Below, one piece after another: positions 1 through 11,385 of a DNA stretch of 11,385 nucleotides (positions are counted from its first letter, which is position 1; each line of letters starts with the position of its first letter). The position numbers and the translations under genes were made by a program. The stretch is from a virus. The stretch lies in the UHGV virus genome UHGV-0346646. One strand, 5' to 3'. The notes under the pieces were generated by a model that was not told the DNA's origin, did not search any database, and saw only the letters and a list, made by a program, of their open reading frames with translations.

Positions 1-642
1 CGCTTCCACGGCGTTATTGATTACGCGCTTGCTGAAAGTGGCCCTGTGCTCTGAATAGATCGCCACCATTTCGCGGCTAAGTTCCATTGTGCTGACCGGA
101 CACCATACCCCGCCGCGCCATACGTGAACGATTTCACTTTCAGGATGTACGCAAACGCCATCAAAGCGATCGGCAAGCAGCTGCGCGCGCTCACTGTCCG
201 CCATCTGCGAAAGTTGCGCCTTTTGCTTTACCGGAAGCTCAATGACCAGACCATCAGAAAGATTCTGGCGCTCACGGGCCAGATATTCGCGCCAGTTCTC
301 CACCTTCTGACCGTGCATACCATCAGGGTAAAAATTTGCATCCTGTACGCCTGCCGCCGCCAGCTTCTGGCCAATCGCCTTTATCATTACTGGCGCAAGA
401 TATCCGGCCCTGAATATGCGCACGGATTTTCTGCCTTCCGGCACAATTTGCAGCTTATCCAGTTCTGATAACTGCTGCTCCCCAAGCCACACAGGAGGCT
501 CATTATCTCCGGCCATACGCGCATCATGTTCCTGCCATTGTTTCGCGTGTGCCCAGGCATCACTACCCGCAAAAATAATGACTTCTGTTCCTTTGTGTTT
601 TATGCCGCGTGACTGCTGTTTTACGTTCGGTGCCAGTTTCAT
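1..642 (-). CDS. hypothetical protein, 5-prime part only (gene continues past window start)
   Basis: ATG at 642-640 overlaps the stop of the upstream gene (ATGA). Frame stays open for all 214 codons down to position 1; checked by hand translation (MKLAPNVKQQSRGIKHKGTEVIIFAGSDAWAHAKQW...VWRGGVWCPVSTMELSREMVAIYSEHRATFSKRVINNAVEA). Absent from the ORF track because it has no stop inside the window. Function not recognised. Confidence 0.5.
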   Translation of the reverse strand, partial: MKLAPNVKQQSRGIKHKGTEVIIFAGSDAWAHAKQWQEHDARMAGDNEPPVWLGEQQLSELDKLQIVPEGRKSVRIFRAGYLAPVMIKAIGQKLAAAGVQDANFYPDGMHGQKVENWREYLARERQNLSDGLVIELPVKQKAQLSQMADSERAQLLADRFDGVCVHPESEIVHVWRGGVWCPVSTMELSREMVAIYSEHRATFSKRVINNAVEA

Positions 643-938: not shown

Positions 939-943
939 TATTT

Positions 944-1177
944 TTATTCTCCGGTGTGGGGCGCTTTATACTGGTCGTGTAATGTCTCTATTTCCTGCAA
1001 CTCATTTATTACAGGCTCAAGAAGCGTTATTAATGCCGTGACAATCCTTGATTTCTGTTTATCACGTTCATTATCTCCAAGCGTTTCAAGACATATGCGC
1101 AATATTTCCAACATATTTTCACTGTGAGAAAGTGCAAGAAATGCGCGGTCTATTGTTTCGTGGTAAATATCACGCAT
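944..1177 (-). CDS. hypothetical protein (77 aa)
   Basis: ATG at 1177-1175 preceded by GGGGA; stop at 944-946 lies 5 nt before the next gene start. Protein-like composition. Confidence 0.5.
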   Translation of the reverse strand: MRDIYHETIDRAFLALSHSENMLEILRICLETLGDNERDKQKSRIVTALITLLEPVINELQEIETLHDQYKAPHTGE

Positions 1178-1178
1178 A

Positions 1179-1613
1179 TTAATCCCCGTCCGTCGTTTTT
1201 CTTAAAATAACCTCTGTCACGAAATCAGCATAATCGGCGGCGATATTCAGTACATCAAGCCCCGTTGATTTATATTCTCTCGTGGAAAGTAAGAAAAAAT
1301 CCGCTCTAATAAGCTCTGGCATTGACGAAAGCGCATCAGCCGCATCATCAGGAACGCCGGAAAATTCCTGTTTCAGGGAATTAAAACGATCATCACGCAT
1401 AACCCCCCCATTTTCACAATCAGCAACAAGAATATTTTTAGCGTCATTCAGCGACCGCGTTGCGATGTATCGGATACATTCCAGGGCGAACTGTGTCCGG
1501 TCTTTCTGTTCTTCTCCCTGCGCAAGCTCTGCCGTGCATTCAATATCAATAAGCGCGTGCATCAGCGTAGTGAGTGCGGCGGCGGCTGCGTCCGGTGTGG
1601 TTTTATTGCACAT
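1179..1613 (-). CDS. hypothetical protein (144 aa from the ATG at 1613; track ORF starts further upstream at 1667)
   Basis: Internal ATG at 1613 is preceded by GGAGGGG at good spacing; the 1667 start has no Shine-Dalgarno. Overlaps the stop of the upstream gene by 11 nt. Function not recognised. Confidence 0.5.
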   Translation of the reverse strand: MCNKTTPDAAAAALTTLMHALIDIECTAELAQGEEQKDRTQFALECIRYIATRSLNDAKNILVADCENGGVMRDDRFNSLKQEFSGVPDDAADALSSMPELIRADFFLLSTREYKSTGLDVLNIAADYADFVTEVILRKTTDGD

Positions 1614-1833
1614 GTACCCCTCCGCATTTTTTTTCGTTAGAAATAAGCGTTCTTCTTTCCTGTTCATCGCTCAGGAATACGCAGACCTCACCGCTAAGGC
1701 GTTTAAGTAAGCCGATGATTGCCCCTGATTCGCTGTCGGTCATCATGCCAGGGTAATCCTCTGCCAGTGCGCAAATAACTTCGATTTGGTGGGCGCGTTC
1801 TGCTGCCTGTTGTAGTGTGATTTCCTGGCTCAT
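1603..1833 (-). CDS. hypothetical protein (76 aa)
   Basis: ATG at 1833-1831 overlaps the stop of the upstream gene (ATGA); GGGGG upstream. Confidence 0.45.
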   Translation of the reverse strand: MSQEITLQQAAERAHQIEVICALAEDYPGMMTDSESGAIIGLLKRLSGEVCVFLSDEQERRTLISNEKKCGGVHVQ

Positions 1834-2030
1834 AAGCCTACCCCCTGACGAATACGGGCAGCAAATACCATCACGCAGCCAGCCGGAGATTGCTGGCGTG
1901 CTTCCTGTTCGCTGGTGGCCTCAATGGTAATCACGCGCGGTTGTGCCGTGCTCAGGGCGATAAAACGCCAGATGTATTTATTCAGGTTGTGCGAGTCCCG
2001 CCCTTGCGGGTGTGTGGTATGATTTAACAT
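1830..2030 (-). CDS. small protein (66 aa), possibly Icd-like; family assignment is tentative
   Basis: ATG at 2030-2028 with GAGG 5-6 nt upstream; first gene of the minus-strand operon, downstream of a strong predicted promoter. It is also the C-terminal 66 codons of the long track ORF 1830..3116, which I consider a read-through artefact. Confidence 0.5.
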   Translation of the reverse strand: MLNHTTHPQGRDSHNLNKYIWRFIALSTAQPRVITIEATSEQEARQQSPAGCVMVFAARIRQGVGL

Positions 2031-2067
2031 AGCTACCTCGATACTTTCGCTATCGTTGGTGGTTAGA

Positions 2068-2100
2068 AGCCCTGCGAGTGGTAACGACACTTGCGGGGCT
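2068..2100. promoter_or_regulatory. 13-bp-arm inverted repeat (AGCCCTGCGAGTG / CACTTGCGGGGCT, 7-nt loop) in the leader of the minus-strand operon
   Basis: Read directly: the arms pair fully if two G-U wobbles are allowed. Sits between the predicted minus-strand promoter and the start at 2030. Confidence 0.4.
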
Positions 2101-2127
2101 TTGCATTTATGCACCTTGATAATCTCA

Positions 2128-2168
2128 AGGTGTAGCCCACTATATGCTTTAGGTGTGGCCCACGTCAA
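2128..2168 (-). promoter_or_regulatory. predicted sigma70 promoter for the minus-strand small-gene operon, overlapped by two direct repeats (AGGTGTAGCCCAC 2128-2140 and AGGTGTGGCCCAC 2151-2163)
   Basis: On the minus strand: -35 TTGACG (2168-2163), 18-bp spacer, -10 TATAGT (2144-2139). The direct repeats overlap the spacer and the start site, as operator sites would. Confidence 0.4.
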
Positions 2169-2170
2169 GG

Positions 2171-2199
2171 GTTTTATTTGTGCTTTTTCTGTGTATACT
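2171..2199 (+). promoter_or_regulatory. possible promoter for the ribbon-helix-helix gene
   Basis: -10 TATACT at 2194-2199; the -35 is weak (GTTTTA region). Divergent from the minus-strand promoter. Confidence 0.3.
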
Positions 2200-2229
2200 G
2201 TCCCCCACCAATCCAACAGAGGAATAGAA

Positions 2230-2409
2230 ATGGCAACGGGTACAACAAACGCAAAATCACAAGCTCTAAAGGCTCGTGTACCACACGAAATAGTAAACGC
2301 CATGGAATCAGTGAAAGAATCAGGCGAAAGCACATCACAATTCATCATTGCGTCAATGCAAGGCGAGATCAAACGCCGCCAGCGCCGCAAGGCCAAAGAG
2401 CAGGAGTAA
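2230..2409 (+). CDS. ribbon-helix-helix (Arc/MetJ/CopG-like) DNA-binding protein, 59 aa
   Basis: ATG at 2230 with AGAGGAA Shine-Dalgarno. Protein MATGTTNAKSQALKARVPHEIVNAMESVKESGESTSQFIIASMQGEIKRRQRRKAKEQE has the strand-helix-helix pattern typical of RHH repressors. Followed by tandem plus-strand terminators. Confidence 0.6.
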   Translation: MATGTTNAKSQALKARVPHEIVNAMESVKESGESTSQFIIASMQGEIKRRQRRKAKEQE

Positions 2410-2466
2410 CCATCACCAGCGCCGTGGTGTGAGTAACTACGGCGCATTGCTATGCAGGACAACACA

Positions 2467-2640
2467 ATGACCGATAAAGAATTGACCAAAACATTATCAC
2501 CGGCACGGAAAAGACGGCGCAGAAAGATAGAGCATGAATCAGAAAGATTCGCGCCATGTGCTTTTGCCCTTGAGCAATTCCTTAAAGAGTACAGGGAAAA
2601 GCGCTCATTGCAGGTATGGCAACGAACTGAACCTGACTGA
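2467..2640 (+). CDS. possible small basic protein (57 aa)
   Basis: ATG at 2467 with a weak AGGA upstream; Lys/Arg-rich (SPARKRRRRK). Lies between the RHH gene and the plus-strand terminators. Weakly supported. Confidence 0.3.
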   Translation: MTDKELTKTLSPARKRRRRKIEHESERFAPCAFALEQFLKEYREKRSLQVWQRTEPD

Positions 2641-2719
2641 TTGCATTGCCCACCAGCCGCAAATGTGGCATTGTTGGCAATGCTCATGCGTTGGGGATAA
2701 CGTGTAGCTTGTGTCGAGG

Positions 2720-2748
2720 GGCCACCGTAGCGGGTGGCCTTTGTTTTG
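2720..2748 (+). terminator. rho-independent terminator
   Basis: Stem GGCCACC / GGTGGCC with loop GTAGCG, followed by TTTGTTTTG. Confidence 0.6.
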
Positions 2749-2843
2749 CCCGTTATTCGGCAATTGTGGCGCTTCTCCACATGGTTGATATAATCCCACT
2801 GCTCAGATTCATTTTTTGCGCAGTAGGTTAATTGTTCACAAAG

Positions 2844-2877
2844 GCGCTCCGGCAACGGGGCGCTTTTTGTTTTTATT
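2844..2877 (+). terminator. rho-independent terminator (second of a tandem pair)
   Basis: Stem GCGCTCCG / CGGGGCGC (one G-U) with loop GCAA, followed by TTTTTGTTTTTATT. Confidence 0.6.
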
Positions 2878-2882
2878 AGTTT

Positions 2883-3116
2883 GTAGAAACCTGACTCAGA
2901 GATAATGCTCATATTCTGATTGCCGTCAGGGGTGTAAGTTAAATTTACTCCCTTTTTATCATCAAACATCTGCAACGCTCTGGCGTTAACAATATTGGTT
3001 TCACTCCCGCCAGTAAGGCCGGAAATAACCGGAATAATTTCGGCAAAATTTTGCAGATTCTGTTTTTCAGGACGAACGAAGCCCCGCCCTTGTTCGGGAG
3101 AATATCCAGTATTCAT
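2883..3116 (-). CDS. BRO-N / antirepressor-like N-terminal domain ORF, probably truncated or degenerate
   Basis: First ~78 codons of track ORF 1830..3116 (…DDKKGVNLTYTPDGNQNMSIISESGFYKLI) resemble the C-terminal half of a BRO-N domain from memory. The similarity ends where the plus-strand terminator at 2844-2877 is encoded; the remaining ~350 codons have Cys/Trp/Arg-rich antisense-like composition. True end unknown. Confidence 0.3.
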
Positions 3117-3168
3117 GGTTAGATCTCTGTATTAGTGGATGGGTGGCGGCTGTGTGCCGCCAGCCTGA

Positions 3169-3357
3169 TTAGTGAACTGCCTCGCAGCTGTCCTTCCATG
3201 CCAGAACTTCGGATAAAGACCAGCCAACGGAACGACCGCCCAGCTTACGCCGTGATGGGAATTGTCCGGCTTTTTCCAGGTGGTACCGACATGAGCGGCT
3301 CAGGCCTGTAAGTTGCTGACATTCTTTTTCACGTATAAAGCGATCTGTGCTTAACAC
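3169..3357 (-). CDS. alpA: AlpA-family (prophage CP4-57-type) transcriptional regulator / excisionase-like HTH protein
   Basis: GTG start at 3357-3355 preceded by GGGGGA. Protein (…QQLTGLSRSCRYHLEKAGQFPSRRKLGGRSVGWSLSEVLAWK) matches the AlpA pattern TG.SR.T.Y…G.FP…KLG.RSVGW..SE…W. Sits next to the integrase, as in P4-like islands. Confidence 0.85.
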   Translation of the reverse strand: MLSTDRFIREKECQQLTGLSRSCRYHLEKAGQFPSRRKLGGRSVGWSLSEVLAWKDSCEAVH

Positions 3358-3640
3358 AATTCCCCCTTTGTTGTTTCTTAAAGAGTCATTGGGTGGATTA
3401 TTGGGTTGGGTTGTGTCGGATTGTGTCAGGGTGTTTGTGGAATGGCAAACACTGGCGGCGGTCGTTTTACAGAAGCAGGGGAAATGAGAATAAAAACTCT
3501 TTTAATTCATTATGATGCAAAGGCATAAAATTTTACTTTTACGCCTTTTTTACATATTTTTAAGAGTGATTCGCCAGTGTATAAAAAAACAGTACACCTA
3601 TAAAAATCAAATGGTTATTACGATGGCTGATTTTTAACCC

Positions 3641-3700
3641 GTTGTTCCATTTTGTTCCTTGTTGTTCGTCGTTGTGTCTCGTTGTTTCACGTTGTCCGCA
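3641..3700. repeat. cluster of short direct repeats (CGTTGTT/CGTTGTC units) between the integrase and alpA
   Basis: Read directly: gttgttccattttgttccttgttgttcgtcgttgtgtctcgttgtttcacgttgtcc. Related TTGTGTC units occur at 3400-3440. Confidence 0.5.
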
Positions 3701-3722
3701 TCCTGAAAAATCGCAAAAAAAA

Positions 3723-4970
3723 TTATATTTCTCTGGCTATTGGCAATGTGGTTACGTTTTCATGTGTTCCCGCCAGTATCCCTAACCGCTCCGTCCACAT
3801 ATCCAGCGCGTCACGTTTCGCATCCAGATAACGGGAATGGTTATAGACTCGTTGCATCCCTGGCATCTGATGACCTGTAAGCTGCTCCACGACGTGAGGA
3901 TCCACGCCTAAATCGTTCAGCATCGTTGTAAAGGTGCGCCGGATGTCATGCAGTGACCAGTGAGGGTGTTTTAGCCTCCTGTGCGCTAATCTGCCGTACT
4001 GCGACACGCTTGTTTCCTGTTTCACTTCCCCCAGCAATAAGCCCGTGTGCCTGTTCTGCTCCACCAGCTGCGTGACGAACGGCAGTATTGCTTCCGGTAT
4101 GGGCCGGAATATTGCCACCTTCGTTTTGCTGTGTTCTTTCGGCACGGTCCAGAGCATTTCGGTAAAATCCCACTCGCTGATCTCCGATAACCTCAGTTCT
4201 ACCGTCCGGCATCCGAAAACAATCAGGAGGCGGATTAGTGCGACGTAGTAAGGGGAAAATATTTTTTTGTCCAGTGCCTGCAATAATTCGCCAAGTTCTT
4301 TGGTGCTTAAGACGCGCTCGCTTATATCCGGTTTTTTCCCAACGTCCGCCACACTCATATCATCAAGAACGTTGCTGATTGCATAGCGCCGCCTCCGGCA
4401 GAACTTAAGCGCCTGTTTGCACGTCTGTAGCAAGAATCCGGCAGTAACAGGCGTTCGCTTTGCCACCTGGTCAAAACAGGCCAGCCAGTGCCGTAGCTCG
4501 CATTTATCCAGCGGCATAGCACCAATGTGCTGTATTACGTGATTATTAAGGCGCTTTTTCAGGGCGGCATAATCCACGCGGTTTTCCTTTGCGTACGACT
4601 CAAGCCAGTAGGTGAGCGCATCGCCAACCGTTACCGGCTTTAACGCTTCCTGTACGGTGTAATTCATTTCATGACGTGGATTTTTCCCCTCTGCCAGCCA
4701 TGCGCGACACTGGGCGGCTTTTTCCCTGGCTGATTTCAGGCTCAGATCAGGATAATTTCCCAGCTTAATGCGTTCCGGTGGTGCCCCCCTTCCCGTTCCG
4801 GCCCTGTAAGTGAAATACCAGGTTAAAAGGCCACTGGTTGAATGCCTGACGCTCAGGTTTCCACCGTCATTAAGAAAGGCTGTTTTTTGGGCGGGTGTGC
4901 CGTTGATTTTCCTCAGCTGTGTATCGCTCAGTTTGTTAAGTGCTCTGCTCATAATTTTGATTCCGGTCAT
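3723..4970 (-). CDS. int: P4-type tyrosine integrase (site-specific recombinase, phage integrase family)
   Basis: Conserved C-terminal catalytic region HDIRRTF…GHQMPGMQRVYNHSRYLD (H-x-x-R and catalytic Tyr context) and an N-terminal arm-binding-type region like P4/CP4-57 integrases. Start is ambiguous: GTG 4973, ATG 4970 or ATG 4952 (MSRALNKLSDTQ…). Confidence 0.9.
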   Translation of the reverse strand: MTGIKIMSRALNKLSDTQLRKINGTPAQKTAFLNDGGNLSVRHSTSGLLTWYFTYRAGTGRGAPPERIKLGNYPDLSLKSAREKAAQCRAWLAEGKNPRHEMNYTVQEALKPVTVGDALTYWLESYAKENRVDYAALKKRLNNHVIQHIGAMPLDKCELRHWLACFDQVAKRTPVTAGFLLQTCKQALKFCRRRRYAISNVLDDMSVADVGKKPDISERVLSTKELGELLQALDKKIFSPYYVALIRLLIVFGCRTVELRLSEISEWDFTEMLWTVPKEHSKTKVAIFRPIPEAILPFVTQLVEQNRHTGLLLGEVKQETSVSQYGRLAHRRLKHPHWSLHDIRRTFTTMLNDLGVDPHVVEQLTGHQMPGMQRVYNHSRYLDAKRDALDMWTERLGILAGTHENVTTLPIAREI

Positions 4971-4972
4971 CA

Positions 4973-5009
4973 CAATTAACTACACCATTAACTACACCGA
5001 TCGTTGCAC
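4973..5009. repeat. direct repeat copy 1 (contains tandem AACTACACC units), immediately upstream of and overlapping the integrase start
   Basis: caattaactacaccattaactacaccgatcgttgcac. A near-identical copy lies 234 bp away at 5207-5242; the flanks share a degenerate ACAACGTG-GAACAA motif. Confidence 0.7.
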
Positions 5010-5206
5010 AAAGGGCTACAACGTGAAACAAGCTGGAACAAGGAAAATCACAAATCTGTTTATAATCAAAAACATAATGAACAACCTGAAACATTATGAA
5101 ACGGCAAAAAACACTAATTGATAAAATATGTCCTTTTATCACTACATCAAGGCAAGCCATTGATTTAATTAAATGATTTGCACTGCAAAAAGTGCTAAAA
5201 ATCGCA

Positions 5207-5242
5207 AATTGACTACACCATTAACTACACCGATCGTTGCAC
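5207..5242. repeat. direct repeat copy 2 of the integrase-upstream repeat
   Basis: aattgactacaccattaactacaccgatcgttgcac; one mismatch against copy 1. Confidence 0.7.
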
Positions 5243-5451
5243 TGTATGAAACAACGTGGAACAAATAGACACAAGAAATATACAGGCGGGTCATCTTTCC
5301 AGGGGGAAGCGCGCCAATTCATGAGGGGCGTTAATGTCGATATGGGGATCCCCATAACGGGGCTACCTGGCTTTTTTCCGGTTAAATGTCAATCAGGCTG
5401 GTGGGTTTTACATACCCTTGATCACCGTAATGATGATCCAGATGTGCGCCT

Positions 5452-5507
5452 TTCCACCAATGGTGGAAAAGCCCACAGCAGGCCGCCCAGCCTCCCCCAA
5501 TGGGGGA
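5452..5507. repeat. pair of related GC-rich palindromes (TTCCACCAATGGTGGAA at 5452-5468; TCCCCCAATGGGGGA at 5493-5507)
   Basis: Read directly; centres 41 bp apart. A third palindrome, ATGGGGATCCCCAT, is at 5342-5355. Candidate protein-binding or recombination core sites in the non-coding junction. Confidence 0.5.
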
Positions 5508-5515
5508 TTGTGGAA

Positions 5516-5684
5516 GAATCAACGGGTTAGGCCTTAATGGGCTGCGTGGTAATTATCAGCATCCAGAATATGACGGGTTATGTTTCCGACCTCTTCAATT
5601 TGAGGTTCCCGAAAATATCAACGGGTTAGGCTGGTTTCCCCGATGTTCGCCGCTGGCGAATTTCGAAAATATCAACCAGTTACC
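5516..5684. repeat. three direct repeats of an ATCAAC(G/C)(G/A)GTTA(G/C)(G/C) unit (5516-5533, 5608-5632, 5662-5684)
   Basis: gaatcaacgggttaggcc; cccgaaaatatcaacgggttaggct; ttcgaaaatatcaaccagttacc. The last copy overlaps the stop of the 93-aa gene. Confidence 0.5.
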
Positions 5685-5961
5685 GCCGCAACCGCTCCGG
5701 CTTCTTCCAGTGGTACGTAATTTTCTCCGTTTCCCGATACAGTGCCACGCGGCGATTGTAGGCCAGCATTTCAAGAACGCGGATCCGTATGTTGCGCATA
5801 TCCACATCATTAAGCTGGATACCATTACGGCGAATCACCTCAGCAACCACACGAACATAATTTTCGGCGGTCACGCTGTCCGGCTGCGTGGTCTGTTCGT
5901 CGGCCTGCTGGCTGATTCCGGCAACGCGGCGGATTAATCGCAGTATTTCGGCTTCTGTCAT
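5680..5961 (-). CDS. hypothetical protein (93 aa), last gene of the packaging-side module
   Basis: ATG at 5961-5959 with GGGGG 5 nt upstream; the track ORF 5680..6159 extends upstream through the cos copy and is not credible there. Protein MTEAEILRLIRRVAGISQQ… has no recognised motif. Confidence 0.5.
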   Translation of the reverse strand: MTEAEILRLIRRVAGISQQADEQTTQPDSVTAENYVRVVAEVIRRNGIQLNDVDMRNIRIRVLEMLAYNRRVALYRETEKITYHWKKPERLRR

Positions 5962-5994
5962 TGTGCCCCCATCGTTCTGATAGTCTGGTGTCGT

Positions 5995-6066
5995 CGGGTC
6001 CTTCCTGGAATTATGGCCCGTTACGGGGCGGCGACCTCGCGCGTTTTCACTATTTATGAAAATTTT
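5995..6066 (+). other. lambda-type cos site, copy 1 (cosN with cohesive-end sequence GGGCGGCGACCT at 6026-6037)
   Basis: gttacgGGGCGGCGACCTcgcgcgttttcactatttatgaaaattttt is near-identical to the lambda genome junction (…GTTACG / GGGCGGCGACCTCGCGGGTTTTCGCTATTTATGAAAATTTTCCGG) as I remember it. Confidence 0.75.
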
Positions 6067-6075
6067 TCGGGATCC

Positions 6076-6172
6076 ATGTCCGGTTTCTCTGCAAGTTAAC
6101 CATATGAAAAATATAAAAACATGCTTTCCATGAACCGGACATGCGCAAAAAACAGACACTAAAACCGGACAT
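6076..6172 (+). promoter_or_regulatory. cosB-like repeats: ATGTCCGGTT (6076-6085, inverted), AT-rich spacer, AACCGGACAT (6134-6143) and AACCGGACAT (6163-6172)
   Basis: One inverted plus two direct 10-bp sites with an A/T-rich stretch between the inverted pair, paralleling lambda cosB (R3 - IHF site I1 - R2 - R1). Lies directly after cosN copy 1. Confidence 0.5.
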
Positions 6173-6240
6173 CGAACCAGTTAACCGAAAGTGTGCACAA
6201 ATCACATGCATTGCTGCGAGTGATTAACAAGTTATCGGCT

Positions 6241-6675
6241 TTACTGTTCTGTATCGGCTGATTGCTCCATGCTGGCACGGCGAACGCTTACGGCATGACG
6301 CCACCCAGCCAGAAAGCCAGCCATTTTATTTCGTGCCTTGCTCACATCTTCCGGTGAATAGCCGTAAATCTGCAAACCTTCATCAAATCGATGTTCTGTT
6401 TCTTCACTGGAGTACTCGTCACGCTCAGATGAAAGCAGCCTGGCAAACATAATTTTTTCCAGCGCACTGGTTTCTACGTGATATCTGATGGCCTCAAGAC
6501 GGCTTTTACCTGAAGACCAAAGCAATGTATGCCCGATGTGATAACCGCCAGACTTTCCGCGATCCGCATTAAGATACGGCATCCCCTGTTTGGTCCATGC
6601 GCGAATAGTGGTTCTGTTAACCTTGAAATGTTCAGCTATTTCCTGCTGACTTACAAAACAAGCTTTATCAATCAT
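6241..6675 (-). CDS. lambda Nu1-like small terminase-type protein (N-terminal winged-HTH DNA-binding domain), 144 aa
   Basis: ATG at 6675. N-terminus VSQQEIAEHFKVNRTTIRAWTKQGMPYLNADRGKSGGYHIGHTLLW aligns by eye with lambda Nu1 KKQLADIFGASIRTIQNWQEQGMPVLRGGGKGNEVLYDSAAVIKW. Shorter than Nu1 (181 aa). Lies about 90 bp downstream (minus strand) of cosN copy 2. Confidence 0.7.
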   Translation of the reverse strand: MIDKACFVSQQEIAEHFKVNRTTIRAWTKQGMPYLNADRGKSGGYHIGHTLLWSSGKSRLEAIRYHVETSALEKIMFARLLSSERDEYSSEETEHRFDEGLQIYGYSPEDVSKARNKMAGFLAGWRHAVSVRRASMEQSADTEQ

Positions 6676-6744
6676 AATGTTACCTTAACTGCATGGTTAA
6701 ATATTAATCAAGTGGTGGTGGTGTCACCTTCACGGAAAAACGTC

Positions 6745-6807
6745 ATAAATAGCGAAAACCCGCGAGGTCGCCGCCCCGTAACGGGCCATAATTCCAGGAA
6801 GGACCCG
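6745..6807 (-). other. lambda-type cos site, copy 2, inverted relative to copy 1 (cohesive-end sequence at 6765-6776 read on the minus strand)
   Basis: Reverse complement reads cgggtccttcctggaattatggcccgttacgGGGCGGCGACCTcgcgggttttcgctatttatg; 47 bp are identical to copy 1 and about 70 bp match with two mismatches. Confidence 0.75.
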
Positions 6808-6808
6808 T

Positions 6809-6830
6809 AAAAAAGCCGGATTTCTCCGGC
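6809..6830 (-). terminator. rho-independent terminator ending the capsid operon
   Basis: Minus-strand hairpin GCCGGA-GAAA-TCCGGC followed by TTTTTT, just after the stop at 6837. Confidence 0.65.
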
Positions 6831-6836
6831 CTTGTC

Positions 6837-7250
6837 TCAGATGGTTTTCAGTATGCGATCGATGTCGCCGTCATCGCCCTGGTTTCTGCCATCGTATGCC
6901 ATGCCAGCTGATACGGCTTGCGGGCTGTGCATGTCCATAAAGTTTTCAAAGGCTGCGGTAAGCTCTGGTGCAACCTTTGGGCGCTCCTGCTCTATGGTCA
7001 TGTTCAGGATTTCACGAGCATTATCGACGCTAATACATGGCACGTTTGCCATTGCACGTAACAGCGGCTGATAGTCTTTATGCTCATGAAGCGCCATAAT
7101 CGCATCAGCGCGCGGCTTGTCCTGCTCTTCCAGTTTGTTTAGTTGATATACGGCCTCATAGGTTGATAAACCTCTGTCAGCCATTGCCCGCGCTTCGGCT
7201 TTAAATTTACTCGCCAGCGGTAGCGTCATGATGCTTTCATTCGTTGCCAT
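6837..7250 (-). CDS. hypothetical protein (137 aa), last gene of the capsid operon; possible scaffold-like or capsid accessory protein (speculative)
   Basis: ATG at 7250 with GGGGG 5 nt upstream; predicted helix-rich and acidic. Function not recognised. Confidence 0.55.
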   Translation of the reverse strand: MATNESIMTLPLASKFKAEARAMADRGLSTYEAVYQLNKLEEQDKPRADAIMALHEHKDYQPLLRAMANVPCISVDNAREILNMTIEQERPKVAPELTAAFENFMDMHSPQAVSAGMAYDGRNQGDDGDIDRILKTI

Positions 7251-7262
7251 CGTTCCCCCTGC

Positions 7263-7598
7263 TTATCGGGCCAGCGGCTGAACGGATACGCCGGAACCCG
7301 CAAAGGCGGCGCATTTTTTCGCATCGGTGTCGACGCTCTCAGGCCAGTTAACGGCGGCAATATTGAATATCCCCGTCTTGTAACACTGTGCTGATTTCTG
7401 CTTTGACGTGTCCACAGGGTACGAGGTCAGATAAACAGCCTTGCCAGATTCCTGACCATCCCACGGCTTAAACTCGCCATTGTCCGCCAGCATCAGCGGG
7501 GTAAATTCCTGAATAACGCCAGCATCAGCGGCAAAATGTACCAGCGTCGTGGCGACCTGCTGACTGCCTGCAAATAACTCAATGTATGGAGTGTCCAT
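7263..7598 (-). CDS. head decoration protein, lambda gpD family
   Basis: TPLMLADNGEFKPWDG…YKTGIFNIAAVNWPES…AKKCAAFAGSGVSV aligns by eye with lambda gpD TPLMLDTSSRKLVAWDG…YKSGTFRYEDVLWPEA…TKKRTAFAGTAISI. Similar length (111 vs 110 aa). GGGGG Shine-Dalgarno. Confidence 0.8.
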   Translation of the reverse strand: MDTPYIELFAGSQQVATTLVHFAADAGVIQEFTPLMLADNGEFKPWDGQESGKAVYLTSYPVDTSKQKSAQCYKTGIFNIAAVNWPESVDTDAKKCAAFAGSGVSVQPLAR

Positions 7599-7609
7599 AG
7601 AATCCCCCG

Positions 7610-8665
7610 TTAACCAATTTTGACGGTAACAAATTTGCGAATATCTGCCGGAACCGGCTGCGGTGCGCTGTGCGTCTGCACGTACTCAATCGCCGGATCG
7701 CCGTCCTCAATCCAGTTTTTCGGGTAAAACATGTTTTGCGTTGCGCCCGTTCTTACTGCGTCCTGATCCATAATCGCACCATAGGCCACCAGCCCTTTAT
7801 TGTTGGTGTTGCCCAGGACAAGCAAATCAGGCTCAAGGAAATATTTTTCTGTGCCGTCGCTGTCAGTGTATTTGCCGGAATAGACGATAAGGGCAATATC
7901 GCCCAGATAGCCTTTAAAGCTCACCACTTCGCCCAGGTTTTTACAGGCCAGCTCTGCGGCGGACTCTGAACCACGGGAAAGATCGTACAGCTCACGGAAT
8001 TTTTTAAAGCTGCGTAACGTTCGCCATACCTCAGCGCCCATAATCATGACGTTTGCGGGGCAACCAGCCTGATCGGCGTATAGTTCGATATCATAGATTG
8101 GATCGTGGGTTTCTTTGTCCTGCTCTGACCATTTTTTCCCGTCGGCCTGCTCTATGATGTTTTTTTCCGGTATCTTCCAGTCGATTTCATAGCGCTCTAT
8201 GCCTTCGCCTTCAATGATGTTTTTTCCGGTCGTTACCGCATTTACCGCCAGCCATTCCACGCGCGCTTTTATGGCGTTTATCTGGCGGCGCATATTGCCA
8301 GTAATCAGGCGCATACGGCGATAGGTAGGGTCGTTAAGCTGTGCCGGATCTTCTCCAGCCATGCGCATGATGGTTTTCGTTGGATCGATTTCGTGCTTTG
8401 GCTTCATGTAGCCAGGTTTAATCGTGCTGGTTTCGTACCCTTTATCGCGCTGAACCTGGCTACCCACCATAGGCGAACAAAACGCCGACATGGTGACTTC
8501 TTCAATGTCCAGGGTATCCAGCATGATGTTTTGCGTGCTGAATGTCGCCACGTTCGGGAAAAACAGCGTGGTAAACAGCGGACTGAATTTAAATTCCGCA
8601 ATATCCCCGCGATTCAGGTACGCAAAAAGCTGGTTAGTGTTAAGTGCCATTGCTTTTACTGTCAT
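7610..8665 (-). CDS. major capsid protein, lambda gpE family
   Basis: 351 aa with FKFSPLFTTLFF, PGYMKPKHE, DPTYRRMR, SFKGYLGDIALIVYSG, YPKNW and GDPAIE motifs matching lambda gpE (FKFDPLFLRLFF, PGYVKPKHE, DPAYRRRR, SYKGMYGDVAIVVYSG, YPKNW, GDPARE) at the same relative positions. Confidence 0.9.
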   Translation of the reverse strand: MTVKAMALNTNQLFAYLNRGDIAEFKFSPLFTTLFFPNVATFSTQNIMLDTLDIEEVTMSAFCSPMVGSQVQRDKGYETSTIKPGYMKPKHEIDPTKTIMRMAGEDPAQLNDPTYRRMRLITGNMRRQINAIKARVEWLAVNAVTTGKNIIEGEGIERYEIDWKIPEKNIIEQADGKKWSEQDKETHDPIYDIELYADQAGCPANVMIMGAEVWRTLRSFKKFRELYDLSRGSESAAELACKNLGEVVSFKGYLGDIALIVYSGKYTDSDGTEKYFLEPDLLVLGNTNNKGLVAYGAIMDQDAVRTGATQNMFYPKNWIEDGDPAIEYVQTHSAPQPVPADIRKFVTVKIG

Positions 8666-8871
8666 TATTCACCCCCGTGAACCTGATTCATACCCAGCGC
8701 CGCGCGTAAATAGGCGCGTACCTGCCAGCCTGTTGACGGCTCAACCATCGCCAGCGGATCAAGTCCTGCCGCAATGCCTGCTTTTACGTTCTGCTGGTGG
8801 CGTTCCTTGAGCGCCTTCACGATGTCGGGGCTTATGTACACCGAAACACCGCCTTTTTTCTCTTCAGCCAT
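8665..8871 (-). CDS. hypothetical protein (68 aa), first gene of the capsid operon
   Basis: ATG at 8871; stop overlaps the capsid gene start by 1 nt (TAATG). Shine-Dalgarno spacing is long (AGAGGA ~12 nt upstream), so the start is uncertain. Confidence 0.45.
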   Translation of the reverse strand: MAEEKKGGVSVYISPDIVKALKERHQQNVKAGIAAGLDPLAMVEPSTGWQVRAYLRAALGMNQVHGGE

Positions 8872-8904
8872 AGTAAGAAATTCCTCTTTGACTTAAAAAA
8901 TCAT

Positions 8905-8953
8905 AACTGGATGTTCATCCAGCTCTGATTATAATCATGATTGCATTTTGTGC
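8905..8953 (-). promoter_or_regulatory. predicted capsid-operon promoter with overlapping palindromes
   Basis: Minus strand: -35 TTGCAC (8953-8948), 16-bp spacer, -10 TATAAT (8931-8926) inside the palindrome GATTATAATC. The perfect inverted repeat CTGGATG-TT-CATCCAG (8905-8920) lies at about +1 to +16. Confidence 0.4.
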
Positions 8954-9036
8954 AATGATGTTGAGTTGCGTTGCAAATTATGAAATGATTATCCCGATCA
9001 TGTGTGTCAGTGCACCAAAAAGCCTCATATGCAAAA

Positions 9037-9073
9037 GCCCGATAAGCCACCTCTGACCTTATCGGGCTTTTTT
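9037..9073. terminator. orphan terminator-like hairpin in the 415-bp intergenic region
   Basis: GCCCGATAAG - 11-nt loop - CTTATCGGGC followed by TTTTTT on the plus strand (AAAA precedes it). No obvious plus-strand gene upstream. Confidence 0.35.
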
Positions 9074-9248
9074 ATCTGCCTGCAAAGATGTCGAACGAAA
9101 ATTAACCACAACCATCATCTTTTTTGCATCAAAACAATTAAAAACAATAAATTACGCTCATGATGATGATGACGATAAAATCACAAAAATGCGCTTTTTT
9201 CCGCGCCTCCCGCCCCGTGTTCAGGCCCACCCCGCCAGGAGGACCCGT

Positions 9249-9271
9249 AAAAAAGCCGGATTGCTCCGGCT
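9249..9271 (-). terminator. rho-independent terminator after the SSB gene
   Basis: Minus-strand hairpin AGCCGGA-GCAA-TCCGGCT followed by TTTTTT. Sequence is near-identical to the terminator module at 6791-6840. Confidence 0.6.
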
Positions 9272-9286
9272 TCTGTCTCTCGTCGC

Positions 9287-9709
9287 TTAAAACGGTATGT
9301 TATCCCCGTACGGATCATCATTCCCCGCCTGTTGTTTTGCCCTGTTCAGCGCGTCAGTAGCCTGGCCCTGTTGACCTTTTTTGCCGCCCAGTCGCGCCGT
9401 TCGCGCACTGATTACACTGTCTGCGATAACCTGCCAGCCCTGCCGCGTTTCTCCGTTCTGCCCAGTCCACTGGCTGATCTGCATGTTACCCGCCACGCTC
9501 AGGAGTTCACCCTTGCGGTGCCTTTCCAGTGCTTCGGCCTGTCTGCCAAATGCCAGGACGGATAACCACATCGTCGCCGTTCCGTCATCTGCCTGGCTGC
9601 ACGGAAGGGGGACCGCCATACGCGCCAGCGTCATCGGTGTGCCCTTGCTGGTCTGTTTTACCTGCGGGTCGTCCACCAGCCGCCCGTAAGCTGCTATCTG
9701 TGCTGTCAT
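9287..9709 (-). CDS. ssb: single-stranded DNA-binding protein (SSB, OB-fold)
   Basis: Aligns by eye with E. coli SSB: G.L..DP.V, W..V..FG..AE, RKG, W.G..G..R. C-terminal acidic tail ends NDDPYGDNIPF (compare SSB …DFDDDIPF). GAGGTGG Shine-Dalgarno. Confidence 0.75.
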   Translation of the reverse strand: MTAQIAAYGRLVDDPQVKQTSKGTPMTLARMAVPLPCSQADDGTATMWLSVLAFGRQAEALERHRKGELLSVAGNMQISQWTGQNGETRQGWQVIADSVISARTARLGGKKGQQGQATDALNRAKQQAGNDDPYGDNIPF

Positions 9710-9765
9710 GATTCCACCTCTCCGGTTTTAACGTTGATGGTTGTTACCTGTTCCGCTTCGGCAAT

Positions 9766-9984
9766 CTACCGCTCTGTCAGCGTGGCAAAATTTGCCGCCG
9801 TCGTGGTCATGAATGCGCTTATCAGTTCGGGATGTGCTTTCGCGTATCCTTCCCCCGCGTGGCGGTCTATCGTTCTGATTGCCACCTTTAAAGCGTGCTC
9901 TGTCATGTCTAACGCGCGATATTTCGGTTCTGTTCTGTCTCTGCGTTTTTTGAGTGATTTATTAAATTTCCCTGAAGTGTGCAT
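9766..9984 (-). CDS. hypothetical small protein (72 aa or shorter from an internal Met)
   Basis: ORF between the origin and ssb; the Shine-Dalgarno is poorly placed, so the start is uncertain. Confidence 0.4.
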   Translation of the reverse strand: MHTSGKFNKSLKKRRDRTEPKYRALDMTEHALKVAIRTIDRHAGEGYAKAHPELISAFMTTTAANFATLTER

Positions 9985-10033
9985 ATTTATTTTTACCCCC
10001 TCGTTTAAAAAGTTTTGAGTTGTGCCTCCCCTT

Positions 10034-10259
10034 GTCTACCTTATCTACCTTAGTGGCCCTCATGCCAGTAATGGCGCGGCTTTCAGCGGGGTAGAGTGCT
10101 TTTATCCACTATCTACCCCGTGTCTACCTCCCTGTCTGATTCAGGTAAAATCAGGTAGAGAGGGTAGATAGTGGGTAGACAGTAAAAAAAGGCTATCTAC
10201 CTAACTTAATGCACTGAATTAAATGTATTTTTCTTTACTCAGGTAGACAGGGTAGACAG
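10034..10259. repeat. iteron cluster, putative replication origin (about 11 copies of GGTAGA(C/G/T)AG in both orientations)
   Basis: TCTACC at 10035, 10044, 10112, 10123 and 10196; GGTAGA at 10089, 10154, 10163, 10174, 10242 and 10251. Immediately downstream of the primase/helicase stop at 10273. Confidence 0.7.
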
Positions 10260-10272
10260 CAATTACAAAAAA

Positions 10273-11385
10273 TTATAAAAACGCGTCGCACTCGTCTGTT
10301 GTTATTGCGTTAGTCTGCGTTACCCCCTTAACTTTCCGCGTAATATATTCATGTCCGTAAACTTTTGCGGCAGGCTTCATAGCCTTTCCAAAGTCATTTA
10401 CGTTTAGCGGTTTGCTCCTGCCTGCGTATGCCATAAACGCCAGATAGACGCGGTAAAGGCTGTTCCTGGTCGTGTACTTCACTGAATCGCCACCGCCCCC
10501 CATCATCAGGCCGCGCGCTTCCTCCAGAAAATTCAGGAACTGGCAAAACTCAATAACCGGATCCGTCTGTTGCTTTATTGCCAGTGCTTCATCACCGTCA
10601 CGCTGTTCCAGTAGTAAAGCCCGTGCCTTCTCAGGGTCGGTAAAGTTCGCCAGCAATCGGCGGATAATGACAGGGATTTCAGCCGCGATCTTTTCCGGTA
10701 GCTCCCTGTCTTTTTCGGCCTCACTGACGATATTGTCGAAACGGAAAATCACGCGACGACGTGCCACACCTCCGGCCCGTTCGGTGAATATCATCGGGTT
10801 ATTGTTGGTCGCCAGCACCACCGCCCTGATTACAGCCGTGAAACGCTTTTCGTATTTCGGGTTAATTTCCACGGGGTCACCGCCCGTGATTTTCTTGATG
10901 CCCGTTCCTTCGCCTGTATATTTCGGCTGGTCAGCCAGGACGATAAGACGACTCCCGACAACCTGCGCACGTCCACCAGCATCATCAAGCGATGTCATTT
11001 CAGCGCTTACCGTGTTCTGTTTCCCTGCCAGAAGGCTGGCTATGTGCGTGAATGTACTTTTACCGCTCCCGCCGTCTCCGGTGGCCTCAATAAACATCTG
11101 CCAGTCGTACCGGTTCGCCATAATCATGTACAGCGCGGCACATATACGCATCATCTTGCGCGGGTCTTTTCCGGCTGCGTGCTCAAGCCATTTATGAAAG
11201 TTTGGCGCGTTATCGCGGATGTTCTCCCCTGGTGCTGGTGGCGTGTACTCAATGCCGTTGTGCGTGGTGATCCAGTTCTCCGGCGTGTGCGGGGAAAATC
11301 CCCCCGTTTTCAGGTCAAGCGCACCATTGGCGAACGGCAGCAAATCGCCGGACGGCTCGCCCATTGGTTCGGCAATAACTTTTAA
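10273..11385 (-). CDS. P4-family phage/plasmid primase C-terminal region with D5_N-like and SF3 helicase (P-loop) domains; 3-prime part only (start lies beyond window end)
   Basis: Walker A GDGGSGKST; upstream D5_N-like LLPFANGALDLKTGGFSPHTPENWIT; Walker B-like LIVLADQ. The frame is open upstream of the first in-window Met to position 11385, so the gene starts outside the window. Confidence 0.85.
   Translation of the reverse strand, partial: LKVIAEPMGEPSGDLLPFANGALDLKTGGFSPHTPENWITTHNGIEYTPPAPGENIRDNAPNFHKWLEHAAGKDPRKMMRICAALYMIMANRYDWQMFIEATGDGGSGKSTFTHIASLLAGKQNTVSAEMTSLDDAGGRAQVVGSRLIVLADQPKYTGEGTGIKKITGGDPVEINPKYEKRFTAVIRAVVLATNNNPMIFTERAGGVARRRVIFRFDNIVSEAEKDRELPEKIAAEIPVIIRRLLANFTDPEKARALLLEQRDGDEALAIKQQTDPVIEFCQFLNFLEEARGLMMGGGGDSVKYTTRNSLYRVYLAFMAYAGRSKPLNVNDFGKAMKPAAKVYGHEYITRKVKGVTQTNAITTDECDAFL

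What the first reader, a model, noticed from the sequence alone, without database searches (positions are those of the whole stretch)
10034..10259. Iteron-rich origin directly downstream of the primase/helicase gene
About eleven GGTAGA(N)AG units in both orientations lie within 225 bp starting about 15 bp after the primase stop. This matches the origin arrangement of SaPI/PICI-type and P4-type replicons, where the initiator binds iterons beside its own gene.
Basis: partly seen in the sequence, partly recalled or inferred. Interest (0 to 1): 0.55.

Follow-up and report, generated by a model that had tools for sequence, protein, structure and literature searches.

The report
Replication origin of E. 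coli PICI
This is the replication origin of a small phage-parasitic island of E. coli (an EcCICFT073-type PICI): eleven short binding sites for the island's own initiator helicase. A 95%-identical copy has already been shown by experiment to work as an origin, so the finding is right but not new.

Summary
Eleven exact GGTAGA cores, six on + and five on -, lie in 10035-10256; 500 simulated sequences never gave more than 3 in such a span. The genes here are on the minus strand, and the array starts 13 nt after the stop of the "primase" gene.

The window is a complete 11.4-kb EcCICFT073-type PICI, circularly permuted. The 288-bp intergenic region is 95.1% identical to the CFT073 copy, with all 11 cores intact. 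The initiator's last 370 residues are 99% identical.

That copy is a published origin. Pri-ori plasmids replicate and deletions of ori or pri do not (Fillol-Salom 2018). The ori-only fragment replicates only when the CFT073 primase is supplied in trans (Brödel 2024). Verdict: already known.

My additions:
- Ten of the 11 cores mirror each other exactly around 10145.5.
- The gene-proximal half has the same layout as the phage P4 ori.
- Across 83 related loci, the iteron word follows the initiator's C-terminal P4-alpha-type origin-binding domain, not its N-terminal domain.
- The "primase" has no recognisable primase domain.
- A 22-bp motif in the GC-rich spacer also sits inside the iteron arrays of lambdoid phage O-gene origins. 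Its function is unexplained.

The parts
10273..11385 (-). 3' part of the initiator gene (pri-rep; last 370 codons plus stop): end of D5_N, SF3 helicase (DUF5906), C-terminal origin-binding domain
   Evidence: Translation. Pfam D5_N, DUF5906, Pox_D5. 99% identical to CFT073 WP_000761835.
1..642 (-). 5' part of the same gene (first 214 codons). The window is circularly permuted, so base 11385 joins base 1.
   Evidence: Window 1-5133 is 100% identical to the continuation of the island in HM670. Coordinates mapped. The full protein is 584 aa.
10276..10587 (-). Codons 481-584: winged-helix origin-binding domain, the inferred reader of the iterons
   Evidence: Residues 488-579 match PDB 1KA8 (P4 alpha origin-binding domain), E=7e-7. 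The iteron word tracks this domain.
9992..10272 (-). Stretch equivalent to the ori-only fragment used as a primase-dependent conditional origin
   Evidence: Plasmid sequence in supplementary file 1 of PMC11338833, compared.
10260..10272 (.). AT-rich linker (15% GC) between the stop codon and the first iteron
10251..10259 (+). Iteron GGTAGACAG (outer pair, gene-proximal)
10242..10250 (+). Iteron GGTAGACAG (outer pair, gene-proximal)
10202..10241 (.). 40-bp AT-rich spacer (22% GC), the likely site of first strand opening
   Evidence: The same spacer is 13-34% GC in all GGTAGA-type relatives. Very low single-strand stability. Fillol-Salom 2018, Fig. 2 legend, calls the AT-rich region the possible melting site.
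10193..10201 (-). Iteron GGTAGATAG (single inverted copy)
10174..10182 (+). Iteron GGTAGACAG (inner triplet)
10163..10171 (+). Iteron GGTAGATAG (inner triplet)
10154..10162 (+). Iteron GGTAGAGAG (inner triplet)
10129..10153 (.). Centre of the dyad (mirror point 10145.5), with a short inverted repeat CCTGATT/AATCAGG
   Evidence: Mirror test. Inverted repeats I1, I2 and I8 share this centre.
10132..10140 (-). Possible degenerate twelfth iteron ATCAGACAG (6 of 9), 3 bp off the mirror position
   Evidence: The Serratia relative L005 has a full third copy here.
10120..10128 (-). Iteron GGTAGACAC
10109..10117 (-). Iteron GGTAGATAG
10090..10098 (+). Iteron GGTAGAGTG (single inverted copy of the distal half)
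10050..10089 (.). 40-bp GC-rich spacer (60% GC), the positional mirror of the AT-rich spacer
10065..10086 (-). Conserved 22-bp motif CTGAAAGCCGCGCCATTACTGG. It is independent of the iteron word and also lies inside lambdoid phage O-gene origins. Function unknown.
10041..10049 (-). Iteron GGTAGATAA (outer pair, distal)
10032..10040 (-). Iteron GGTAGACAA (outer pair, distal)
9985..10031 (-). Conserved leader with the ribosome-binding site (GAGGGGG) of the next gene; most of it (9992-10031) lies within the stretch equivalent to the tested ori fragment
9766..9984 (-). Small ORF (phrog_1231, unknown function), cut short here by a nonsense change at 9768
9287..9709 (-). Single-stranded-DNA-binding protein gene, probably part of the replication module
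   Evidence: Pfam SSB, E=4.9e-15

Best explanation
This is the replication origin (ori) of an EcCICFT073-type phage-inducible chromosomal island. The 584-aa initiator encoded just upstream is a P4-alpha-like SF3 helicase with a C-terminal winged-helix origin-binding domain. That domain most likely reads the rGGTAGAyAG iterons. The sites form two mirror-image modules, each built as two direct copies, a 40-bp spacer, one inverted copy, then two or three direct copies about one helical turn apart. Initiator molecules bound to the array would assemble into helicase rings and open the 22%-GC spacer at 10202-10241. Replication then proceeds with the host replisome, helped by the island's own SSB. 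Shown by experiment, on a 95%-identical allele: the region is needed in cis, the initiator is needed and works in trans, and the roughly 280-bp fragment is sufficient. Inferred here: which domain reads the sites, where melting starts, ring assembly, and who makes the primers. Priming is probably by host DnaG, since no primase domain is detectable.
For: (1) Non-random array. (2) 95.1% identity to the CFT073 intergenic region; none of the 14 substitutions falls in a core; the last 105 residues of the initiator differ by one residue. (3) Published function of the CFT073 allele. The pri-ori plasmid is maintained at the restrictive temperature; the pri deletion gave no colonies and the ori deletion significantly fewer (PMC6092414). 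A cosmid carrying only the ori fragment is kept only when the CFT073 primase AAN79964 is induced in trans (PMC11338833). (4) The initiator matches P4 alpha residues 324-762 at 40% identity, E=7e-113. Its C-terminus matches PDB 1KA8, the P4 origin-binding domain, E=7e-7. Its helicase core matches SaPI5 PriRep5 (7OLA), E=1e-14. (5) Covariation across 83 loci. All 66 with an origin-binding domain at least 57% identical have 9-12 GGTAGA cores after the stop codon, apart from one truncated locus with 6. All 17 with 38% identity or less have none and carry TGTTCA- or GGTATAC-type arrays instead. N-domain identity does not predict the word. L079 and L080 are 99% identical in the N-terminal and helicase regions but 86% in the C-terminal domain, and their iterons differ: GTGTTCAT against GGTATACAT. 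(6) Footprint. In 42 distinct GGTAGA-type origins the cores are 92% conserved against 72% for the rest; none of 5000 random placements matched this. (7) The gene-proximal module has the same site order, and near-identical spacing, as the annotated P4 ori.
Against: No experiment has been done on this exact allele. Binding of the protein to GGTAGA sites has not been measured in any paper I could find. Helicase identity also correlates with iteron type, so covariation alone does not isolate the C-terminal domain; the L079/L080 pair and the 1KA8 match do that. The melting site and direction of replication are unknown. In the 2018 assay the ori deletion reduced colony numbers but did not abolish them.
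Confidence: 0.93

Rival explanations
1. The array is a crr-like cis enhancer of replication, as in phage P4, where the iteron array beside the alpha gene is crr and initiation happens at a separate ori kilobases away.
For: In P4 the array directly 3' of alpha is annotated as crr, and ori lies about 4.5 kb away. The initiator here is a P4-alpha homologue.
Against: The window is the complete 11.4-kb element, and outside this array it has only two isolated GGTAGA copies, at 4198 and 9765. The ori-only fragment is sufficient in cis on a foreign plasmid (PMC11338833). The site layout matches the P4 ori better than a crr repeat.
Confidence: 0.03
2. The repeats are mainly operator sites: a regulator, or the initiator acting as an autorepressor, binds here to control the downstream SSB and capsid genes, and replication is secondary.
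For: The array sits between two co-oriented genes with no predicted terminator. Iteron origins of plasmids often double as autoregulatory sites (general knowledge).
Against: No promoter-like site on the minus strand. Gram-negative PICIs are reported to be transcribed unidirectionally, and AlpA activates EcCICFT073 gene expression (PMC6092414). Deleting ori gives a replication phenotype. The same layout serves as ori in P4. A secondary regulatory role is not excluded.
Confidence: 0.03
3. The array is a packaging signal (cos or pac, or terminase-binding repeats).
For: Terminase small subunits also bind short repeats. A PICI must carry a packaging site.
Against: Two exact lambda-type cosN 12-mers lie elsewhere, at 6026 and 6765, matching the two functional cos sites reported for EcCICFT073. 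No cosN-like sequence lies in 10030-10260.
Confidence: 0.01

Closest known systems
ori of EcCICFT073 (E. coli PICI; Fillol-Salom et al. 2018 ISME J, PMC6092414; used as 'primase-ori' conditional replicon by Brödel et al. 2024 Nature, PMC11338833)
   Same: Same element type, same position 3' of pri-rep, 95.1% identical DNA, all 11 cores present, and an initiator whose C-terminal 370 residues are 99% identical. Iteron sets flank an AT-rich region, as in their Fig. 2.
   Different: An allele with 14 substitutions, all outside the cores. The downstream small ORF is truncated here. No experiment has been done on this allele.
Phage P4 ori and crr with the alpha protein (GenBank NC_001609 annotation; origin-binding domain structure PDB 1KA8)
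   Same: The initiator is homologous from D5_N through the helicase to the winged-helix domain (40% identity). The iteron is related: TGTCTACC against P4 type 1 TGTTCACC, 6 of 8. The gene-proximal module has the same order as the P4 ori: two direct copies, an AT-rich spacer of 40 bp (P4: 35), one inverted copy, a gap of 12 bp (P4: 14), then three direct copies 9-11 bp apart. Serratia and Morganella relatives carry TGTTCAC/T iterons.
   Different: P4 has a bipartite system of ori plus crr 4.5 kb apart; here there is one array made of two inverted modules. P4 alpha has a zinc-ribbon and Toprim primase domain, which this protein lacks. P4 has no copy of the 22-bp GC-rich motif in its ori or crr.
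SaPI origins with Rep/PriRep self-loading helicases (PMC9371898)
   Same: The ori lies immediately 3' of the initiator gene. It has 6-12 short iterons in both orientations with an AT-rich region among them. The initiator is an SF3 helicase with a C-terminal winged-helix domain; the helicase core here matches PriRep5 (7OLA) at E=1e-14.
   Different: No DNA similarity. The AT-rich region is off-centre here, with 2 sites on one side and 9 on the other. The hosts are Gram-positive.
Lambdoid phage origins inside O-type replication genes (Stx2a phages, CUS-3, JEP4)
   Same: They share the motif (G)CTGA(A/G)AG-CCGCGCCATTACTG-G in the middle of an iteron array.
   Different: The initiators are unrelated (Phage_rep_O plus a DnaB-type helicase), the iteron words differ, and the array is inside a coding sequence.
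SV40 and papillomavirus core origins (SF3 helicases assembling as double hexamers on inverted site arrays)
   Same: An analogy only: an SF3 helicase-initiator and a dyad-symmetric array of short sites with an AT-rich flank (established knowledge).
   Different: No homology of DNA or of the DNA-binding domain. Double-hexamer assembly has not been shown for this family.

Membership tests
EcCICFT073-type PICI replication origin | Lies immediately 3' of the pri-rep initiator gene | tested here: met
   13 nt separate the stop (10273) from the first 9-mer (10259).
EcCICFT073-type PICI replication origin | [quoted passage not shown] | tested here: met
   Two sites on one side and nine on the other of a 40-bp, 22%-GC spacer. 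Described this way in PMC6092414, Fig. 2.
EcCICFT073-type PICI replication origin | Sequence identity to the validated origin and its cognate initiator | tested here: met
   95.1% identity over 288 bp with no core changed. Initiator C-terminal 370 residues 99% identical, with one difference in the last 105 residues.
EcCICFT073-type PICI replication origin | PICI gene context (int, alpA-type regulator, pri-rep, helper-type cos, chromosomal attachment site) | tested here: met
   The same island lies between roxA and phoQ in CFT073 and HM670. int at 3723-4973. The 62-aa ORF at 3169-3357 (-) corresponds to the RefSeq-annotated helix-turn-helix regulator in HM670 and CFT073. Two cosN sites.
EcCICFT073-type PICI replication origin | Supports replication in cis when the initiator is supplied | not testable with these tools
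   Published for the CFT073 allele, not for this allele.
Phage P4 ori/crr system | Initiator homologous to alpha's helicase and origin-binding domain | tested here: met
   40% identity over 440 aa, E=7e-113. 1KA8 match, E=7e-7.
Phage P4 ori/crr system | Type 1 iteron TGTTCACC | tested here: not met
   The word here is TGTCTACC / TATCTACC, 6 of 8. Relatives L005, L073 and L077 do carry TGTTCAC.
Phage P4 ori/crr system | Bipartite origin: ori plus a distant crr | tested here: not met
   A single array in the complete 11.4-kb element.
Phage P4 ori/crr system | Initiator carries a zinc-ribbon and Toprim primase domain | tested here: not met
   Pfam finds both domains in P4 alpha and the Morganella homologue but nothing in residues 1-150 here. 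hhalign probability 0.1%. Only a weak link to a primase PHROG, E=6e-5. The zinc-ribbon cysteines and the acidic DxD motif have no counterpart in the alignment. The structure model is low-confidence and its fold search gave no significant match.
Phage P4 ori/crr system | Module layout: two direct copies, AT-rich spacer, one inverted copy, three direct copies | tested here: met
   Start-to-start spacings of 9, 46, 22, 11, 9 here against 10, 43, 22, 11, 10 in the P4 ori.
SaPI-type origin | Iterons 3' of rep, an AT-rich region, at least two sites on each side in opposite orientation, SF3 helicase with a winged-helix C-terminal domain | tested here: met
   Definition taken from PMC9371898. This is a resemblance of design; no DNA homology was found.
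Iteron plasmid origin (RepA/pi/TrfA type) | Conserved DnaA box beside direct repeats | tested here: not met
   The only DnaA-box-like 9-mer (TTATCCACT, 10102-10110) is poorly conserved among relatives, 0.3-0.5. The iterons are in both orientations.
cos/pac packaging site | cosN or terminase recognition sequence | tested here: not met
   Exact cosN copies lie at 6026 and 6765, not here.

The most novel reading that the evidence does not exclude
The origin has a part that has not been described. The 22-bp motif CTGAAAGCCGCGCCATTACTGG in the GC-rich spacer (10065-10086) is better conserved than the iterons. It also sits in the middle of iteron arrays built from at least eight other, unrelated iteron words, including origins inside the O-type replication genes of lambdoid phages, the helper family of this PICI. 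It could be a common docking or start signal for a host component, either an unidentified DNA-binding factor or a DnaG priming site. That would fit an initiator with no detectable primase domain. If so, PICIs and their helpers share an iteron-independent origin core.
Probability: 0.3. Interest if true: 0.55.

Novelty: already known. Interest (0 to 1): 0.2.

Why it matters
As a finding it only confirms a known, experimentally validated origin, one already used as a biocontainment tool (a primase-dependent conditional replicon for phage-delivered base editors). The comparative results add detail of modest value. The PICI origin is an inverted duplication of the P4-ori module, which sits uneasily with the published view that this origin organisation is found in no other known bacterial replicon (PMC6092414). 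Natural pairs such as L079 and L080 pinpoint the C-terminal residues that set iteron specificity, which could help in designing orthogonal conditional replicons. The so-called primase seems to be a helicase-initiator only. The shared 22-bp motif is a cheap, testable lead on how satellite and helper origins engage the host.

Tried and rejected
- **Rfam:** gathering-threshold scan of the whole window found no RNA family.
- **Promoter and terminator scan, 9600-10500:** one weak plus-strand promoter-like site, no more than the shuffled sequences give, and no terminator.
- **Single-strand folding of both spacers and the dyad centre:** no structure beyond the shuffles, z from -1.8 to +0.4. A hairpin or cruciform signal is unlikely.
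- **DnaA box:** TTATCCACT at 10102-10110 is one mismatch from the consensus but poorly conserved, so probably chance.
- **LexA-like box:** TACTG-N10-CAGTA is complete only in the CFT073 allele. It is broken here, and its second half is not conserved.
- **IHF, Fis and CRP consensus sequences:** checked by eye against the 22-bp motif; none fits.
- **Packaging site:** rejected, because cosN lies elsewhere.
- **N-terminal domain as a decayed Toprim domain:** a four-sequence alignment suggested it and a primase PHROG gives E=6e-5. Profile-profile comparison gives 0.1% probability and Pfam finds nothing. The single-sequence AlphaFold model is weak (pLDDT 61), and Foldseek against the PDB gave no hit below E=0.01. 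Left as inconclusive.
- **The search for homologous proteins:** returned only hits at least 99% identical, useless for diversity.
- **Genome-contig scan:** gave only 3 loci.
- **Text search of the paper library for the 22-bp motif:** found nothing.

Full report
**Observation.** The sequence between 10035 and 10256 holds eleven exact GGTAGA cores, six reading on the plus strand and five on the minus strand. The whole 11,385-bp window has 13 copies against 2.5 expected from dinucleotide-preserving shuffles. In 500 Markov-1 simulations no 225-bp span held more than 3, and no other hexamer in the window clusters more than 6 times. With flanks, the unit is rGGTAGAyAG. The description is accurate.

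**Context.** Nearly all genes in the window are on the minus strand. The ORF ending at 10273 has D5_N, DUF5906 (SF3 helicase P-loop) and Pox_D5 domains. It runs off the right end of the window. Window 1-5133 is 100% identical to the continuation of the same island in E. coli HM670. The stretch around 5121-5140 joins the island's two chromosomal ends. So the window is one complete 11.4-kb element written as a permuted circle, and the initiator gene is join(10273..11385, 1..642), 584 aa.

On the minus strand, the array is followed by a small ORF, an SSB gene, a lambda E-type capsid gene and a D-type decoration gene. Further on lie two exact lambda cosN 12-mers at 6026 and 6765 and a P4-type integrase gene. 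In CFT073 and HM670 the element lies between roxA and phoQ. This is EcCICFT073, the prototype Gram-negative PICI.

**Identity with a known origin.** The 288-bp intergenic region differs from the CFT073 copy at 14 positions (95.1% identity). None of them is in a core, and CFT073 also has 11 cores. The C-terminal 370 residues of the initiator are 99% identical, and the last 105 differ at one residue.

Fillol-Salom et al. [quoted passage not shown] A pri-ori plasmid is maintained at the restrictive temperature; the pri-deletion plasmid gave no colonies and the ori deletion significantly fewer. Their ΔPri primer even contains GGTAGACAGGGTAGACAG.

Brödel et al. 2024 (PMC11338833) replaced a cosmid's p15A origin with this PICI origin. 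The cosmid is kept only when the CFT073 primase (AAN79964) is expressed in trans. Their plasmid sequence carries only the intergenic fragment, equivalent to window 9992-10272.

**Anatomy.** Start-to-start spacings of the cores are 9, 46, 22, 11, 31, 9, 11, 22, 46, 9. Ten of the 11 cores have an exact mirror partner about 10145.5. The odd one, at 10154, faces a degenerate copy at 10132-10140 (6 of 9 matches, 3 bp off the mirror position).

Read in the direction of the initiator gene, the order is:
- two direct copies;
- a 40-bp spacer of 22% GC;
- one inverted copy;
- three direct copies;
- the dyad centre;
- the mirror image of all this.

The mirror-image 40-bp spacer is 60% GC. This asymmetry, one AT-rich and one GC-rich spacer, recurs in every GGTAGA-type relative.

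**The initiator.** Residues 141-579 align with P4 alpha residues 324-762 at 40% identity with almost no gaps, E=7e-113. Residues 488-579 match PDB 1KA8, the winged-helix origin-binding domain of alpha, at E=7e-7. Residues 194-432 match the SaPI5 PriRep5 helicase (7OLA) at E=1e-14.

P4 alpha's first 320 residues hold a primase zinc ribbon and a Toprim domain, and so do those of a Morganella homologue. The first 150 residues here match no Pfam family, and a profile-profile comparison with the alpha primase domain gives 0.1% probability. A primase PHROG links residues 43-128 weakly to the Toprim region, E=6e-5. However, the zinc-ribbon cysteines and the acidic DxD motif have no counterpart, and the glutamate at the aligned Toprim position is not conserved among relatives. 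A single-sequence structure model is an alpha/beta fold of low confidence with no significant structural match.

I conclude that the protein is a helicase-initiator and that the 'primase' label is unsupported. This rests on sequence analysis, not on an activity assay.

**Comparative test of 'the initiator reads the iterons'.** I collected 83 loci encoding relatives at 53-100% identity from IMG/VR and genomes and scored the 330 bp after each stop codon.
- All 66 loci whose C-terminal domain is at least 57% identical to the window's have 9-12 GGTAGA cores, apart from one truncated locus with 6.
- All 17 loci with 38% identity or less have none. They carry 8-11 TGTTCA(C/T) or 6-7 GGTATAC units instead, usually in the same layout.
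- The N-terminal domain does not predict the word. L073-76 have a 95%-identical N-domain but TGTTCACC iterons. L050-71 have a 42%-identical N-domain and GGTAGA iterons.
- The sharpest case is L079 against L080. They are 99% identical in the N-terminal and helicase parts but 86% in the C-terminal domain, and their iterons are GTGTTCAT and GGTATACAT.

Among 42 distinct GGTAGA-type origins, the cores are 92% conserved against 72% for the other positions; none of 5000 random placements reached that. These results place specificity in the C-terminal domain. This is an inference, but a well-supported one.

**Relation to P4 and SaPIs.** The P4 record annotates six type 1 repeats (TGTTCACC) in ori, and two 120-bp crr repeats directly 3' of alpha. 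Read in one direction, the P4 ori is two direct copies, a 35-bp AT-rich spacer, one inverted copy, 14 bp, then three direct copies 10-11 bp apart. The gene-proximal half of the window's array is two direct copies, 40 bp, one inverted copy, 12 bp, then three direct copies 9-11 bp apart. The word itself differs at 2 of 8 positions.

The PICI origin therefore looks like two P4-ori modules placed head to head. [quoted passage not shown]

It is nevertheless not a member of the P4 system as defined. There is no separate crr, no type 1 word and no primase domain. The design also matches the SaPI description: 6-12 iterons 3' of rep, an AT-rich region, sites in opposite orientations, and a self-loading SF3 helicase with a winged-helix C-terminal domain (PMC9371898). 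There is no DNA homology with SaPI origins.

**Mechanism.**
- Shown by others, on the 95%-identical allele: the fragment is required and sufficient in cis, and the initiator is required and acts in trans.
- Inferred here: the C-terminal winged-helix domain binds the iterons; bound protomers assemble into rings, the dyad suggesting two facing assemblies as for other SF3 initiators; the 22%-GC spacer opens first; priming is by host DnaG; the island's SSB coats the opened strands.

**Rivals.**
- A crr-like enhancer is unlikely. The complete element has no second array, and the fragment alone works as an origin.
- An operator role may be additional but cannot be the main one, given the replication phenotype.
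- A packaging role is excluded by the position of the cos sites.

**An unexplained part.** The GC-rich spacer holds CTGAAAGCCGCGCCATTACTGG (10065-10086, minus strand). This motif is more conserved than the iterons. It is present in 61 of 66 GGTAGA-type origins and in two TGTTCA-type ones.

An exact scan of IMG/VR for its 14-bp core stopped at the 120-locus limit. In 53 of 119 usable loci the core sits within 150 bp of a 7-mer repeated at least four times. A reversed control 14-mer gave 6 of 118, none with five or more repeats.

The arrays around the motif use at least nine different words. In L122 and L096 the array lies inside a lambdoid replication gene (a Pfam Phage_rep_O match in L122, none in L096) that is followed by a DnaB-type helicase gene. 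The same DNA occurs in Stx2a phages, CUS-3 and JEP4. There the motif encodes SNGAA with invariant third codon positions, whereas in the PICI it is non-coding. The constraint is therefore on the DNA. Those loci encode no Pri-Rep homologue.

I found no mention of the sequence in the paper library, and it matches no host-factor consensus I checked. Its function is unknown. A host-factor site or a DnaG start site are guesses.

**Verdict.** The object is the already characterised origin of an EcCICFT073-type PICI, so novelty is nil for the finding itself. Interest is low. The modest additions are the dyad and P4-module anatomy, the domain-iteron covariation, the missing primase domain and the shared 22-bp motif.

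Noticed in passing
window 1-11385 (junctions at 11385/1 and about 5121-5140): The window is a complete 11.4-kb PICI written as a permuted circle. Its right end continues at base 1 inside the initiator gene. Around 5121-5140 the two chromosomal ends of the island (phoQ side and roxA side in HM670) are joined, as in an excised circular or concatemeric form.
   Followed up: yes
window 10065-10086 (-); also L122 about 4135-4170, L096 about 9140-9175: The 22-bp motif CTGAAAGCCGCGCCATTACTGG in the origin's GC-rich spacer also occurs in the middle of iteron arrays built from at least eight other, unrelated words. These include origins inside O-type replication genes of lambdoid phages (Stx2a phages, CUS-3). 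It is conserved at the DNA level and its function is unknown.
   Followed up: partly
window 193-642 (-), residues 1-150 of the initiator: The annotated 'DNA primase' has no zinc-ribbon or Toprim domain. Its N-terminal 140 residues form a separately shuffled module: identity to relatives ranges from 42% to 100% independently of the rest of the protein. In L127 the module is fused to a different C-terminal part.
   Followed up: partly
window 9768: A single substitution relative to HM670 (A for C on the plus strand) turns a Glu codon into a stop. It shortens the small ORF just after the origin from 92 to 72 aa and uncouples it from the overlapping SSB start codon.
   Followed up: yes
window 6026-6037 (+) and 6765-6776 (-): Two exact lambda cosN 12-mers (GGGCGGCGACCT) in inverted orientation flank a 144-aa ORF (6241-6675, -) whose N-terminus resembles a terminase small subunit helix-turn-helix (phrog_57). 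They correspond to the two functional cos sites reported for EcCICFT073.
   Followed up: partly
window 1830-3116 (-): A 428-aa open frame. Only its last 80 or so residues match known families (Icd-like / repressor, phrog_6196), and residues 49-84 weakly resemble anti-repressors. RefSeq annotates only the 66-aa C-terminal part plus two small plus-strand genes inside the frame. The region has a strong AT skew (up to 0.44).
   Followed up: no
L079 versus L080/L086 (IMG/VR loci), 330 bp after the initiator stop: A natural specificity switch. These initiators are 98-100% identical in the N-terminal and helicase parts but 86-90% in the C-terminal domain. Their origins have the same layout but different words (GTGTTCAT against GGTATACAT).
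   Followed up: partly
L067-L070, 330 bp after the initiator stop: In these GGTAGA-type relatives (C-terminal domain 57-60% identical) the two half-modules come in swapped order. In L067 and L068 the 22-bp motif is replaced by a 14-bp-stem hairpin (CGCTGAATCCCTTG...CAAGGGATTCAGCG).
   Followed up: no
L007 (phage P4) 11549-11570; L097-type loci: A 4-mismatch copy of the 22-bp motif lies about 60 bp from P4's right cohesive end. An exact core copy lies between the HNH endonuclease and terminase genes of HK97-like phages. This may be chance, or a hint that the motif is not restricted to origins.
   Followed up: no
window 6837-7250 (-): This 137-aa ORF matches the C-terminal part of head maturation protease families (phrog_53, profile positions 495-567 of 583), next to the capsid and decoration genes. 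It may be a scaffold-like remnant.
   Followed up: no
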